From NCBI GenBank assembly GCA_038230835.1, contig JBBRMM010000017.1:1185-65184 (forward strand): a stretch of 64,000 bases of DNA, written 5' to 3'. Under the pieces are notes generated by a model. That model made no database searches. It worked only from the letters and a program-made list of their open reading frames with translations, and was not told where the DNA came from. The position numbers and the translations under genes are program-made. Origin of the DNA: Gaiellales bacterium. GTDB lineage: Bacteria > Actinomycetota > Thermoleophilia > Gaiellales > JAICJC01. This document shows positions 30,880 through 56,599 of the stretch, one piece after another; within the stretch, counting starts at the first letter, position 1; each line of letters starts with the position of its first letter.

Positions 30880-31308
30880 CTACGGCCGGTTGACCGTGAC
30901 CTTGAAGCTCGTCCCGTCGGCGGGCAACTCGTGAAACTCGGGGTTCAGGCAGCCGAGCGGGTCAGCGCGGTCCTCGTAGGCGCGCTCGACGCTCGACGCG
31001 CAGATCTCGAGCGGCTGACGCGCCACCAGCACCGCCCCGAAGCCGTGCCGGCGGCGGCTCGACTTGCGCAGGACCTCGAGGTCGAGCTCGGTCGAGAAGA
31101 TCCCGCGCGTGCACCCGACATAGGTGCGGCCGAACGCCTCGTGCGCATAGAGGAACGGACACGACCGGGTCAGGCATTCCGACGGGTAGACCACCTTCTG
31201 GCAGACGACCCCGCAGCCGCGGCACTCGACCGCGTCAGCGGCGGGTGCAGTCGGCGGCAGCTGTGGAAGTCCCTTCATCCCTCCCAGCTTAACCCCGCTC
31301 GCGGACAC
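30880..31308 (-). CDS. Cys-rich hypothetical protein
   Basis: Eight Cys including CRGCGVVC; overlaps the HAD gene end; start may be the ATG at 31278. Confidence 0.7.
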   Translation of the reverse strand: MSASGVKLGGMKGLPQLPPTAPAADAVECRGCGVVCQKVVYPSECLTRSCPFLYAHEAFGRTYVGCTRGIFSTELDLEVLRKSSRRRHGFGAVLVARQPLEICASSVERAYEDRADPLGCLNPEFHELPADGTSFKVTVNRP

Positions 31309-32065
31309 GGTCTACTGCCTGCAGCACCTGCATCGGTTCGCTGGCGACGACGTCGGCGAGCGCGTGGTCGCCCTCGTCAGACCGAAACCACGTCGCAAGA
31401 CAGGTGGCCATCCCCTCGCGGGCGGGCCCGACCACGTCCTCGAGCACTCGGTCGCCGACGAACAGCGTGCGCTCCGGCGGCACGCCGGCGGCGGTCAGCG
31501 CCGCCTGGTAGATGCGCGGGGAGGGCTTGCGCCAGCCCACCGCGGTGGACAGGATCACGGCGTCCGCACGCTGCGTCATCTGCTCGGCGGCCATCACCTC
31601 GAGCAGCAGATCGGGCGGGTCGAGCGTGTTGGACACATATCCCACCCGGATCCCGCGGCCGCGCAGCTCGTCGATCAGGCGCGGTGCGTCCGGGTGCAGG
31701 TGGCGCACCGCGTCCCAGGAGCGGATCTGCGCCCGCATCGCCGCGTGCAGATCGACTGCCCCGGGCTGGACGCCGAACCGTTCCAGCGCAGCTCGCAGGA
31801 CGCGGGCGTAGTCAACCTCGGCATAGTCCACGGCCGCCTCGGTGGCCTGCTCCAACAATTCGCCGGTGAGGGTGTGGAACGCCTGCAGGTCGACGCTCGA
31901 GGCGCCCAGAGCTGCCAGCAGCACCCCCTCGCCCTCGACCAGCGTCGACTCGTCCCAGCGGATGTCGACCAGGGTGTGCCCATAGTCGAACAACACCGCA
32001 CCGACGCCCGTCACGGTGCCTGGCACCTCAACAGTTGTCACGGCGCCCGTGACGGTGCCAGGCAC
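31289..32065 (-). CDS. HAD superfamily hydrolase
   Basis: FDYGHTL, VSN, KPSPRIY and FVGD...D..G motifs; N-terminus overlaps a palindromic repeat, start uncertain. Confidence 0.85.
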   Translation of the reverse strand: MPGTVTGAVTTVEVPGTVTGVGAVLFDYGHTLVDIRWDESTLVEGEGVLLAALGASSVDLQAFHTLTGELLEQATEAAVDYAEVDYARVLRAALERFGVQPGAVDLHAAMRAQIRSWDAVRHLHPDAPRLIDELRGRGIRVGYVSNTLDPPDLLLEVMAAEQMTQRADAVILSTAVGWRKPSPRIYQAALTAAGVPPERTLFVGDRVLEDVVGPAREGMATCLATWFRSDEGDHALADVVASEPMQVLQAVDRVRERG

Positions 32066-32071
32066 CGTGAC
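32010..32071. repeat. REP-like pair of GGTGCCWGGCACC palindromes forming an 18-bp inverted repeat
   Basis: GTCACGGTGCCTGGCACC (32010-32027) and GGTGCCAGGCACCGTGAC (32054-32071). Confidence 0.85.
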
Positions 32072-44959: not shown

Positions 44960-45981
44960 CGGTACTGGCTGAAGAACAGGTAGTAGAGGACGAAGCCGCT
45001 GGCGCCGAACATCGCGGCCGCGATCCAGAAGCGGACGATGATCTTGTTCTCCGTCCACTCCATCATCTCGAAGTGGTGGTGGATCGGCGCCATCAGGAAC
45101 ACGCGCTTGCCGGTGGTGCGGAACGAGATCACCTGGATCAGCACCGACAGCGCCTCGATCACGAAGATGCCGCCGATCACCACCAGCAGGAACTCGGTCT
45201 TGGTGAAGACCGCCATCGCCGCCAGCGCCCCGCCCAGCCCGAGCGACCCGGTGTCGCCCATGAACACGTCGGCCGGATAGGCGTTGTACCAGAGGAAGCC
45301 GATGGCGCCGCCGACCAGCGCGGCGGCGATGATCGCCAGGTCGAGGCTGCGCGGGTCCCCGGGGCCATAGAGACCCGGAAACTGGGCGGTCTGGTGGACG
45401 AGGTAGGCGACCACCATCATGGCCGAGTAGCTGAGGAGGGCGATGGTGGTGGTGCCGGCGGCCAGCCCGTCCAGCCCGTCGGTCAGGTTGACCGCGTTGG
45501 CGGCTCCGGCGACGACGAAGAACAGGAACAGGTAGTACACCGGGCCGAGCTTCAGGTGCTGGTTGATCAGGGGCACGAAGACGTCGGTGTTGAGATGCTG
45601 CGAGTGCGCAACCGCGCCTAGCCCGGCCACCACCAGCGCCAGCAGCACCAGCTTGACCCTGCCCGACAGGCCGAGCGACCGCTTGCGCGACAGCTTCAGC
45701 CAGTCGTCGAGAAAACCGATGAACCCGCAGGCCACGGTGACGCCGGCCACGGTGAGCGCAGGTGCGGTGCGGCGGGTGAAGAGCGCGAAGGCGACCAGCG
45801 CGCAACCCAGCAGCACCAGGCCGCCCATGGTCGGCGTGCCCTGCTTGCTGTGGTGCCCGGCCGGCCCTTCCTCGCGGATCTGCTGGCCGAACTCGTTGCG
45901 GCGCAGGAAGGCGATGAACGCCGGCCCGGCGACGATCCCCAGCAGCATCGCAACCACCGCGGCGCCGAGCACGAGCTTCAC
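44956..45981 (-). CDS. mraY: phospho-N-acetylmuramoyl-pentapeptide transferase
   Basis: KQGTPTMGG, GFLDD, NAVNLTDGLDGLA, FMGDTGS and MAPIHHHFE motifs. Confidence 0.97.
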   Translation of the reverse strand: MKLVLGAAVVAMLLGIVAGPAFIAFLRRNEFGQQIREEGPAGHHSKQGTPTMGGLVLLGCALVAFALFTRRTAPALTVAGVTVACGFIGFLDDWLKLSRKRSLGLSGRVKLVLLALVVAGLGAVAHSQHLNTDVFVPLINQHLKLGPVYYLFLFFVVAGAANAVNLTDGLDGLAAGTTTIALLSYSAMMVVAYLVHQTAQFPGLYGPGDPRSLDLAIIAAALVGGAIGFLWYNAYPADVFMGDTGSLGLGGALAAMAVFTKTEFLLVVIGGIFVIEALSVLIQVISFRTTGKRVFLMAPIHHHFEMMEWTENKIIVRFWIAAAMFGASGFVLYYLFFSQYR

Positions 45982-47309
45982 GGTGCGACCGCCTCCACCA
46001 CGGCCTCCAGGCCGACCGAACGGCTGGCCTTGACCAGCACGGCATCCCCGGGCTGCAGCAGACCGTCCAGATCGCCCAGCAGCGTGGCCACGTCCGGGTA
46101 GGCGATACCTCCGTAGTCGCGCGCCAGATCCCCGACGGACACGACCCGGTCGATGCCGAGCTCGCGGGCCAGTTCGCCGACCTGCCGGTGGTAGGCCGGC
46201 CCGCCCGGGCCCAACTCGGCCATGTCGCCCAGGACGGCCACAGAGCGCCGGGAACCGGCGACCGCCGCCAGGTGGCGCAGCGCGGCCGCCATCGAGGTCG
46301 GGTTGGCGTTGTAGCAGTCGGCGATCAGCAACCCGCCGCGCTCCAGCTCGATCAACTCGCCGCGCCAGCGCGAGAAGGTGACCTCGGCTGCGCCCGCGGC
46401 CACCTCCTCGAGGGGCAGCCCGAGCCCTTCGCAGGCGGCCAGCGCTGCCGCCAGGTTGAGCGCGTTGTGGTGCTGGGTGAACGTCACGGGCACCTGCAGG
46501 GTTCGACCGTGAACCTCGAAGTCCGCCCGCCCGCCCGTGAACGCCACAAGGCACACATCGGCGCCGGCGGTCTCGCCGAAGGTGATCACGCGGGCCCGGG
46601 TCTGCTCGACGTAGGGTGCGAGCAGCGGCTCCGCGTGCGGAACGACGGCCGTGCCGCGCGATGTCAGCGAATCAAGGATCTCGGCCTTGGCGGCGGCAAC
46701 CGCCTCCACAGTACCCAGCAGTTCGAGGTGGACCGGGCCGACGCCGGTGATCACCGCGACGTCAGGCCGGCACAGCTCGGCCAGGTAGCCGATCTGGCCC
46801 GGTCCGCGCATCCCCAGCTCACAGACCACCGCCCGCGTCTCGGGCTCGACCCGGTCGAAGGTCAGCGGTAGGCCGATCTCGGTGTTCTGATTGGCCAGGC
46901 TGGCGACCGTGGGCGCAACCCGGGAGAGCAGCGCCGCCAGCAGATCCTTGGTCGATGTCTTGCCGGTCGACCCGGTCACCGCCACCACCATCGCGCCCGA
47001 TCTCCGGCGCACCTCGGCCGCCACCTCGCCCAGCGCGATCAGCGGATCTGCAACGCCAATTGCAAAGCCTTCCGTGACGGTGCCTGGCACCGTCACGGAA
47101 CTGTCACGGGCGATCAGGGCCAGGGCGGCGCCGGCGGCCCTGGCTTCGGCCAGGAAGCGGGTGCCGTCGGTGCGCTCACCGTGCAGCGCGACGAACAGGT
47201 CGCCCGGCTCGACCAGCCGCGAGTCGACCACGAGGCCGGTGACGGTCGCCTCGATCGCCGTCTCCTCGGCACAGGCGGCGGCCACCTCGGCGGCCCGCAG
47301 CGGGATCAT
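45978..47309 (-). CDS. murF: UDP-N-acetylmuramoyl-tripeptide--D-Ala-D-Ala ligase
   Basis: DSR, TGSTGKTSTK, ELGM, DCYNANP.SM, LGDM.ELG and VKASR motifs. Confidence 0.95.
   Translation of the reverse strand: MIPLRAAEVAAACAEETAIEATVTGLVVDSRLVEPGDLFVALHGERTDGTRFLAEARAAGAALALIARDSSVTVPGTVTEGFAIGVADPLIALGEVAAEVRRRSGAMVVAVTGSTGKTSTKDLLAALLSRVAPTVASLANQNTEIGLPLTFDRVEPETRAVVCELGMRGPGQIGYLAELCRPDVAVITGVGPVHLELLGTVEAVAAAKAEILDSLTSRGTAVVPHAEPLLAPYVEQTRARVITFGETAGADVCLVAFTGGRADFEVHGRTLQVPVTFTQHHNALNLAAALAACEGLGLPLEEVAAGAAEVTFSRWRGELIELERGGLLIADCYNANPTSMAAALRHLAAVAGSRRSVAVLGDMAELGPGGPAYHRQVGELARELGIDRVVSVGDLARDYGGIAYPDVATLLGDLDGLLQPGDAVLVKASRSVGLEAVVEAVAP
47070..47100. repeat. 31-bp perfect palindrome (GGTGCCWGGCACC core) inside murF
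   Basis: TTCCGTGACGGTGCC-T-GGCACCGTCACGGAA; encodes SVTVPGTVTE. Confidence 0.9.
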
Positions 47310-56584: not shown

Positions 56585-56599
56585 CGGGGTCAGACCCCG
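56585..56599. repeat. REP-like odd-centred palindrome next to a C-run tract
   Basis: CGGGGTC-A-GACCCCG in the nrtR-nadE intergenic region. Confidence 0.7.

What the first reader, a model, noticed from the sequence alone, without database searches (positions are those of the whole stretch)
47070..47109. Perfect 31-bp mobile-looking palindrome read in frame inside essential murF
Seen: TTCCGTGACGGTGCC-T-GGCACCGTCACGGAA has the same GTSACGGTGCCWGGCACC core as the copies at 32010-32071 and contributes SVTVPGTVTE to a variable loop of the MurF N-terminal domain. The palindrome encodes VTVPGTVT on both strands and has no stop in that frame. A second odd-centred palindrome family (CGGGGTCAGACCCCG) occurs at 56585. 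Established: REPs are normally extragenic and spread by RAYT transposases; in-frame coding insertions are known mainly from Rickettsia palindromic elements. Inference: a family of ultra-short, orientation-independent palindromes that colonise protein loops and termini. This is my best candidate for an undescribed system in the window.
Basis: partly seen in the sequence, partly recalled or inferred. Interest (0 to 1): 0.72.

Follow-up and report, generated by a model that had tools for sequence, protein, structure and literature searches.

The report
Mobile DNA hairpin translated inside murF
A short mobile DNA palindrome of a kind that normally lies between genes sits in frame inside the essential cell-wall gene murF of a soil actinobacterium and is read as a floppy protein loop; such insertions are known in other bacteria, but here related genomes carry their own version of the repeat in the same loop.

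Summary
Window 47070-47100 is a perfect 31-bp palindrome inside murF (minus strand, 45978-47309), read as SVTVPGTV.

It belongs to a REP-type repeat family with core GGTGCCWGGCACC:
- The genome, a Gaiellales MAG, has 33 exact copies; a base-composition estimate expects about 0.6.
- 29 of the 33 are intergenic by my own rough gene calls.
- Two copies lie just upstream of a RAYT-like Y1 transposase gene.

The other three genic copies are also in frame and also read as VPGT. They lie in trpF, fpg and a 2-oxoacid dehydrogenase E2 linker.

MurF orthologues show an empty site in most relatives and decayed copies in two congeners. In another genus, the same loop holds that genome's own REP variant.

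AlphaFold places the insert in the only low-confidence loop of MurF.

"Undescribed system" is not: in-frame intragenic REPs were reported in 2013 (PMC3733652), and the Rickettsia elements earlier. VPGT is not enriched in the proteome.

This is a new member of a known kind. The odd part is that the same MurF loop has been re-occupied or overwritten repeatedly.

The parts
47070..47100 (.). Perfect 31-bp odd-centred palindrome (REP1 copy); core GGTGCCTGGCACC at 47079-47091
   Evidence: hairpin -19.1 kcal/mol, z = -5.5
47101..47109 (+). Asymmetric tail CTGTCACGG, which continues the match to the family consensus GTCRCGGAAGYGTCACG found beside other REP1 copies
   Evidence: alignment of 11 copies
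45978..47309 (-). murF (UDP-MurNAc-tripeptide--D-Ala-D-Ala ligase), 443 aa. The REP is translated as residues about 68-81 (RDSSVTVPGTVTEG), in the loop between strands 63-67 and 83-86
   Evidence: Pfam Mur_ligase, Mur_ligase_M and Mur_ligase_C; PDB 1GG4 E = 1.5e-59, with a 7-residue gap at the insert; AlphaFold model
32015..32027 (.). REP1 core copy between the HAD-hydrolase gene and gcvPB. The predicted GTG start of the hydrolase lies in its arm
32054..32066 (.). REP1 core copy with GTGAC arms, 39 nt from the previous one (a doublet)
56586..56598 (.). REP2 core GGGGTCAGACCCC, part of an asymmetric element of about 80 nt with a GTAC foot and a G-run tail

Best explanation
The palindrome is a copy of a REP-type repeat. 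I call the family REP1; its consensus is about CCGTGAC-GGTGCC-W-GGCACC-GTCACGG. The genome is from the order Gaiellales.

Like classical REPs, the family lives mainly in intergenic spacers and is tied to a RAYT-like HUH/Y1 transposase. That enzyme presumably recognises the hairpin formed in single-stranded DNA and copies it to new sites.

Most insertions into genes would be lost. A copy survives when three conditions hold:
- the net length change keeps the reading frame;
- the copy is read in a frame without stops;
- it lands in a surface loop or linker.

Of the three frames, one gives VTVPGTVT, one has TGA in the arm, and one gives RDGARHRH.

In MurF the copy is translated as a disordered loop of about 8 residues in the N-terminal domain and is probably neutral.

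What is shown: family membership, distribution, adjacency to RAYT genes, in-frame reading, the empty site, and the loop position. What is inferred: RAYT-driven mobility, translation and tolerance of the insert, and the age of the copy.
For: Family.
- 33 exact cores in 3.42 Mb, against about 0.6 expected from base composition (my estimate), and 0 for the arm-swapped control.
- Copy number among 40 relatives runs from 0 to 335, with the backwards control at 0-1.
- 29 of 33 copies are intergenic although my gene calls cover 88% of the genome. Of these, 22 lie between co-directional genes, 5 between convergent genes, 1 between divergent genes and 1 at a contig end.
- 16 of the 33 sit in 8 pairs at most 121 nt apart.
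- The core occurs 33 times exactly, 11 times with one mismatch and 80 times with two. The two-mismatch class is 65 of 80 genic, which looks like background.

MurF copy. It matches the consensus of the composite elements over 13 + 17 nt.

RAYT link.
- A 208-aa ORF at G000:C14:27936-28562 scores 35.4 bits on Pfam Y1_Tnp (cut-off 23). Its best NCBIfam match is REP_Tyr_transpos (E = 1.5e-18).
- Two REP1 copies lie 20-130 bp upstream of it.
- A second, split RAYT is bracketed by inverted REP2 copies.
- In 5 of 16 RAYT loci from relatives, the same 13-nt odd palindrome lies on both sides. Two of these carry GGTGCCSGGCACC.

Other in-frame copies. All read VPGT, and all hosts were checked against Pfam: trpF, fpg and the E2 linker here; murF, aroE and mfd in G014.

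Empty site.
- The own MurF loop is 8 aa longer than in genus g7 and 6 codons longer than in congener G002.
- 43 of 56 MurF loops aligned have no such insert. The 13 with one are the own copy, L054, nine of the g2-like clade, and L060 and L092.

Structure. Residues 71-78 (SVTVPGTV) are the only stretch with pLDDT below 50 in a model whose mean is 91.5.
Against: - RAYT1 has REP1 copies on one side only.
- RAYT1 scores 67.1 bits on the NCBIfam REP_Tyr_transpos equivalog, below the cut-off of 80. Its match to E. coli TnpA-REP (4ER8) is marginal, E = 0.046.
- The hairpin foot is not the GTAG or CGTC tag of described REPs. REP2 has GTAC in 60 of 83 copies and GTTC in 17 of 83; REP1 has GTGAC or GTTGC.
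- RAYT homologues occur in 34 of 41 genomes, including genomes with no REP1 core. Their presence does not track REP1 copy number.
- The REP-like tract is 40 nt, but the loop is only 18-24 nt longer than empty orthologues. A simple insertion into the present-day empty sequence does not account for this.
- None of 15 sampled copies in the three congeners was flagged as genic.
- The genic/intergenic calls rest on my own rough codon-bias gene caller.
- No evidence of movement, and no proteomic or RNA evidence, was obtained.
Confidence: 0.8

Rival explanations
1. The palindrome is kept because it works as a cis element, and the coding reading is secondary. Candidates are an RNA or DNA hairpin in the dcw operon that pauses or protects the transcript, or a protein-binding site.
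For: - Exact cores outnumber one-mismatch cores 33 to 11.
- The hairpin is stable as DNA and as RNA.
- The same MurF loop carries near-consensus palindromes in G000, G014 and G022.
- A 31-bp perfect palindrome is unlikely to be an untouched relic, given 73% nucleotide identity between the murF genes of G000 and G003 (inference).
Against: - The same element lies in frame in unrelated genes and linkers and at 29 intergenic sites.
- 43 of 56 MurF loops aligned carry no such insert.
- Copies in G003, G001 and several g2 genomes have decayed.
Confidence: 0.1
2. The palindrome arose on the spot, by template switching on a short inverted repeat, and only resembles the dispersed family.
For: The arms extend beyond the family consensus: 2 nt in G000, and 6 nt in G014 (arm 21 against at most 15 elsewhere in that genome).
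Against: - The G000 copy matches the family consensus over about 30 nt, including the asymmetric tail.
- G014's and G022's murF copies match their own genomes' REP variants: 12 of 14 sites and 10 of 13 sites share the respective arms.
Confidence: 0.04
3. Selection on the protein favours a VPGT loop in MurF, and the DNA symmetry is incidental.
For: A VPG(T/A) motif recurs in the loop across two genera.
Against: - Wherever VPGT is intact, its codons are the palindromic ones. CCA for Pro appears in only 4 of 19 VPGT in the proteome, and all 4 are REP1 copies.
- VPGT is not enriched.
- The loop has low model confidence, and 43 of 56 aligned MurF loops carry no such insert.
Confidence: 0.02
4. It is an assembly artefact of a metagenome bin.
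For: The genome is a 43-contig bin, and repeats can mis-join contigs.
Against: - The reading frame is intact on both sides.
- A contig from another study is identical across the palindrome.
- Homologous inserts occur in independently assembled relatives.
Confidence: 0.01

Closest known systems
REP / REPIN elements with their RAYT (TnpA-REP) transposases, as in E. coli and Pseudomonas; structure 4ER8
   Same: Short GC-rich palindromes in tens to hundreds of copies. Mostly extragenic, between co-directional and convergent genes. Often in doublets. Y1/HUH transposase genes have the cognate palindrome at their flanks. Copy number is patchy and lineage-specific.
   Different: The host is an actinobacterial order; I found no paper holding both 'Gaiellales' and 'palindromic'. 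The palindromes have an odd centre on CCWGG or TCWGA. The foot is GTAC or GTGAC, not GTAG. The transposase scores below the NCBIfam equivalog cut-off. REP1 and REP2 are often fused into one composite with a G-run tail.
Intragenic, in-frame REPs described by Di Nocera et al. 2013 (PMC3733652; abstract and passages read; its Additional file 3, which lists the genes, could not be seen)
   Same: Members of REP families lie inside genes of known function, read in frame, single or as dimers, in loops or linkers. DNA repair genes are among the hosts: fpg here and mfd in G014.
   Different: The families (GTAG and CGTC tagged) and the hosts (Opitutus, Rickettsia, Thauera and others) differ. The passages I read do not report repeated occupation of one loop by each genome's own variant.
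Rickettsia palindromic elements (RPE). Ogata 2000 is cited within PMC3733652 and PMC3184786 and was not read itself
   Same: Palindromic repeats inserted in frame in genes that presumably stay functional.
   Different: RPEs are about 105-146 bp, per a table in PMC3184786, against 31-45 bp here. The lineages are unrelated. I know of no RAYT link for RPEs (recalled).
   Same: The same bacterial order. A cell-wall gene with a translated pair of short palindromes from a dispersed family.
   Different: A different gene and genome. I did not see its sequence. The own ddl carries only a 13-nt CCTGG-centred palindrome, which I did not show to be a REP.

Membership tests
REP/REPIN-RAYT system | Short palindromic repeat present in many copies, far above chance | tested here: met
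   33 and 83 exact cores; the arm-swapped control gives 0; the backwards control gives 0-1 in each of 41 genomes
REP/REPIN-RAYT system | Predominantly extragenic, mostly between co-directional or convergent genes | tested here: met
   29 of 33 and 80 of 83 copies are intergenic at 88% coding density. Spacers: 22 co-directional, 5 convergent, 1 divergent, 1 contig end (my own gene caller)
REP/REPIN-RAYT system | RAYT gene flanked by its cognate REPs | tested here: inconclusive
   RAYT2 is bracketed by inverted REP2 copies. RAYT1 has two REP1 copies upstream only. 5 of 16 RAYT loci of relatives have the same palindrome on both sides. A G022 RAYT fragment lies between two GGTACCWGGTAC sites
REP/REPIN-RAYT system | The transposase belongs to the Y1/HUH (IS200-like) superfamily, RAYT branch | tested here: inconclusive
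   Pfam Y1_Tnp 35.4 bits, above the cut-off of 23. The best NCBIfam model is REP_Tyr_transpos, but at 67.1 bits it is below the cut-off of 80. 4ER8 E = 0.046. The sequence shows NHFHLVV and YVALNPV; their catalytic role is recalled, not tested
REP/REPIN-RAYT system | Conserved GTAG (or CGTC) tetranucleotide at the foot of the hairpin | tested here: not met
   REP2: GTAC in 60 of 83 and GTTC in 17 of 83. REP1 half-sites: GTGAC 17, GTTGC 9, GCGAC 5, GTCAC 5 of 66. A conserved foot exists, but it is a different one
REP/REPIN-RAYT system | Mobilised in trans by the RAYT | not testable with these tools
   No biochemical or strain-level polymorphism data. The Logan contigs showed no alternative form at the site, which proves nothing
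Intragenic REPs (Di Nocera 2013) | A member of a dispersed REP family lies inside an ORF of known function and keeps its frame | tested here: met
   murF, trpF, fpg and E2 in G000; murF, aroE and mfd in G014
Rickettsia palindromic elements | Element of about 105-146 bp belonging to the Rickettsia RPE families | tested here: not met
   31-45 bp, in a Gaiellales genome. RPE size is from PMC3184786

The most novel reading that the evidence does not exclude
The MurF loop is a long-lived landing pad. The resident REP copy is repeatedly overwritten, or joined in tandem and then replaced, by whichever REP variant is currently active in that genome. An essential gene would then shelter a copy that evolves in concert with the intergenic REP population.

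Evidence so far:
- G000, G014 and G022 each carry a near-consensus copy of their own variant in this loop.
- All nine g2-like MurFs hold the insert in the same phase.
- G014's copy differs over a 42-nt tract from that of a sister whose N-terminal region, outside the loop, is 92% identical, and that tract equals G014's REP consensus.
- G022 holds two tandem copies, a possible intermediate.

Against: G003's copy is decayed and does not match G003's own arms. Independent insertions filtered by selection would give the same picture.
Probability: 0.35. Interest if true: 0.65.

Novelty: new member of a known kind. Interest (0 to 1): 0.42.

Why it matters
It extends REP/RAYT systems, including in-frame copies in essential and repair genes, to an abundant but uncultured soil actinobacterial order. 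I found no description of them there.

It also gives annotators a practical warning. In these genomes, odd loops such as SVTVPGTV or EKSVPGTDFS in housekeeping proteins are repeat-derived, and gene starts next to REPs are easily called too long.

If the in-place renewal reading holds, these loci would allow study of how REP populations replace their own members. How REPs are copied is still not well understood (recalled).

Tried and rejected
- Beta-hairpin idea. I expected VTV-PG-TVT to fold as a hairpin. The AlphaFold model shows no strand there, only a coil with pLDDT below 50, so I dropped it.
- VPGT enrichment in the proteome: none.
- RAYT presence against REP1 copy number across 41 genomes: no simple relation.
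- Genic copies in congeners: 0 of 15 sampled sites (5 each from G001-G003) were flagged, and the G001 arrays added none. The criterion was strict and the sample small.
- E2 linker: an empty site cannot be shown. The linkers of relatives have similar length and are unalignable.
- G001 murF has several frameshifts in that assembly, so its loop can only be read roughly.
- Runs: no RNA holder was listed for the stretch. The contigs laid showed no alternative form at the palindrome. Neither says anything about expression or polymorphism.
- Earlier notes: a look-up by sequence found nothing.
- Papers: 0 hold both 'Gaiellales' and 'palindromic'. In the 12 listed of 310 papers for RAYT/REPIN/Actinobacteria, no paper with RAYT or REPIN in its title mentions Actinobacteria.
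- Supplement: the list of intragenic REPs in PMC3733652 (Additional file 3) could not be read. I therefore cannot say whether murF, trpF or fpg were already listed for other species.

Full report
**Observation.** Window 47070-47100 reads TTCCGTGACGGTGCCTGGCACCGTCACGGAA, a perfect palindrome with 15-nt arms around one central T.
- It lies inside a 443-aa ORF on the minus strand (45978-47309). That ORF is MurF by Pfam (Mur_ligase, Mur_ligase_M, Mur_ligase_C) and by its match to E. coli MurF 1GG4 (E = 1.5e-59).
- It is read as SVTVPGTV. The + strand gives the same peptide.
- The 13-nt core GGTGCCWGGCACC occurs three times in the window against 0.24 expected.
- The hairpin is far more stable than shuffled sequence: -19.1 kcal/mol, z = -5.5.
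- A contig from a run of another study covers 47057-47278 without a difference, so it is not an assembly accident.

**The family.** The window is part of a 3.42-Mb, 69% G+C genome in 43 contigs. Record titles of its nearest MurF relatives place it in Gaiellales, class Thermoleophilia.
- The core occurs 33 times, and the arm-swapped control 0 times.
- The flanks show modules. Many REP1 copies have GTGAC/GTCAC arms.
- One subfamily continues as GTCRCGGAAGYGTCACG, a spacer, and then REP2 with a run of G.
- REP2 is an oriented element of about 80 nt. Its foot is GTAC in 60 of 83 copies or GTTC in 17 of 83.
- The murF copy matches the composite consensus through core plus 17 nt and then returns to murF sequence.
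- With a codon-bias gene caller of my own (3314 genes, 88% coding), 29 of 33 REP1 and 80 of 83 REP2 cores are intergenic, mostly between co-directional (22) or convergent (5) genes.
- The core occurs 33 times exactly, 11 times with one mismatch and 80 times with two. The two-mismatch class is largely genic and looks like background.
- Among 40 relatives the core count runs from 0 to 335, with the backwards control at 0-1.

**Transposase link.** The genome has two Y1_Tnp matches.
- One is an intact 208-aa ORF: Pfam 35.4 bits (cut-off 23). Its best NCBIfam model is REP_Tyr_transpos at 67.1 bits, below the cut-off of 80. Two REP1 copies lie just upstream and none downstream.
- The other is split into two overlapping ORFs and is bracketed by inverted REP2 copies.
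- Homologues occur in 34 of 41 genomes.
- In 5 of 16 such loci the same 13-nt odd palindrome lies on both sides of the gene, twice as GGTGCCSGGCACC.
- This is the REPtron layout, although the foot motif is not GTAG.

**In-frame copies.** All four genic REP1 cores are read as V-P-G-T, inside genes checked against Pfam:
- murF;
- a PRAI/trpF gene (ATAPVTVPGTVSRPG);
- fpg (a 47-bp near-perfect palindrome, TVTAPVTVPGTVTGAVT);
- the linker of a 2-oxoacid dehydrogenase E2, between its lipoyl and E3-binding domains, which holds a whole REP1-REP2 composite (VAVPGTVTEPSPKGDAVRTGSDP).

One of the other two frames has TGA in the arm. The remaining one would give RDGARHRH.

In G014, 3 of 14 copies are in frame in murF, aroE and mfd.

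Orthologue alignments show that the fpg and trpF inserts are confined to the own genus, with decayed or different versions in the congeners.

VPGT as a peptide is not enriched: 19 occurrences, 23rd of 24 permutations. Only the four REP copies use the codons GTGCCAGGCACC.

**MurF orthologues.**
- The own loop is 8 aa longer than in genus g7 and 6 codons longer than in congener G002, which has no palindrome.
- Congener G003 has a homologous but decayed tract (SLTEPGPI), and G001 probably has one too.
- murF of G000 and G003 is 73% identical in nucleotides and 61% at third positions. An untouched 31-bp palindrome is therefore unlikely to be a simple relic; this is an inference.
- In a second genus (g2), all nine MurFs examined hold an insert in the same phase.
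- G014's copy is a perfect palindrome with 21-nt arms. Those arms (TGAAAAATC) are the arms of 12 of that genome's 14 REP1 copies.
- G014's copy differs over 42 nt from that of a sister whose N-terminal region, outside the loop, is 92% identical.
- G022 has its own variant (TGAAACATTG, GTACCWGGTAC, AGGTGTTTCA) at 10 of 13 sites. The variant lies beside a RAYT fragment and occurs twice in tandem in murF.
- The loop has therefore been occupied more than once, or overwritten in place.

**Protein context.** In an AlphaFold model (mean pLDDT 91.5), residues 71-78 are the only stretch below 50. They form a coil between strands 63-67 and 83-86 of the N-terminal domain. E. coli MurF has a 7-residue gap there.

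**Comparison with what is known.** Passages of PMC3733652 report REPs within genes of several species, often repair genes, encoded as 20-30 residues in loops or linkers, and relate them to the Rickettsia RPEs. PMC3184786 lists other in-frame repeats. The kind is therefore known.

What I found new:
- the host lineage;
- the odd-centred CCWGG/TCWGA cores with a GTAC or GTGAC foot;
- the REP1-REP2 composite;
- the repeated use of one MurF loop by genome-specific variants.

**Open points.** Mobility and translation are inferred. The gene calls are rough. The choice between re-insertion and in-place conversion is not settled.

Noticed in passing
window 56586-56598 and 82 other sites of G000: REP2 is an oriented element of about 80 nt: GTCAC boxes, a GTAC foot, GGGGTCTGACCCC, then a run such as GGGGTGGGGTGGGGG that could form a G-quadruplex (consensus).
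   Followed up: partly
G000: C2 227076/227196, C3 234340/234461, C7 102454/102565, C14 27804/27903 and others: About ten REP1 cores are preceded by a conserved module, GTGACAACTGTTGAG, five variable bases, then GTTGC. They often come in direct pairs 100-121 nt apart. Two of them lie upstream of RAYT1. The role of this module is unknown.
   Followed up: no
L032:1465-2078 (G000:C4:78252-78865): The second RAYT gene is split into two overlapping ORFs, one with the HUH half and one with the Tyr half. This is a frameshift, either real or an assembly error.
   Followed up: partly
L141 (G002 fpg loop): The same Fpg loop in congener G002 holds three tandem units built on another odd palindrome, GGGGCCAGGCCCC (read GPGPSQA), followed by a REP1-like GTACCCGGTACCGTCACG tract.
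   Followed up: partly
L198, L199, L200, L201 (G001): Congener G001 has tandem arrays of the REP1 core with periods of about 40, 50, 60 and 95 nt.
   Followed up: no
window 31289-32065: The longest ORF of the HAD-hydrolase gene starts inside the REP1 doublet (MPGTVTGAVTTVEVPGTVTG...). My gene call starts at the GTG at 32014, inside a REP arm, eight residues before the HAD motif. Annotators may call this gene too long.
   Followed up: partly
several loci: L204, L085, L088, L141 and the window: All REP1-like cores seen in this bacterial family keep a CCWGG centre (GGTGCCWGGCACC, GGTACCWGGTACC, GTTACCWGGTAAC, GGCGCCTGGCGCC, GGGGCCAGGCCCC). The arms change on both sides together. CCWGG is the Dcm/Vsr site in enterobacteria (recalled). 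A link was not examined.
   Followed up: no
L252 (G000:C23, ddl): The genome's ddl has a 13-nt CCTGG-centred palindrome, AGCGCCTGGCGCT, in its variable region. I did not show it to be a REP remnant.
   Followed up: partly
G000:C8:111895-112446 and C7:119748-121082: A REP2 core lies inside a BioY-like membrane protein gene, read WGLTP. Another forms the last 15 nt of a polysaccharide-deacetylase-like ORF. These family names are my reading of the sequences and were not checked against Pfam.
   Followed up: no
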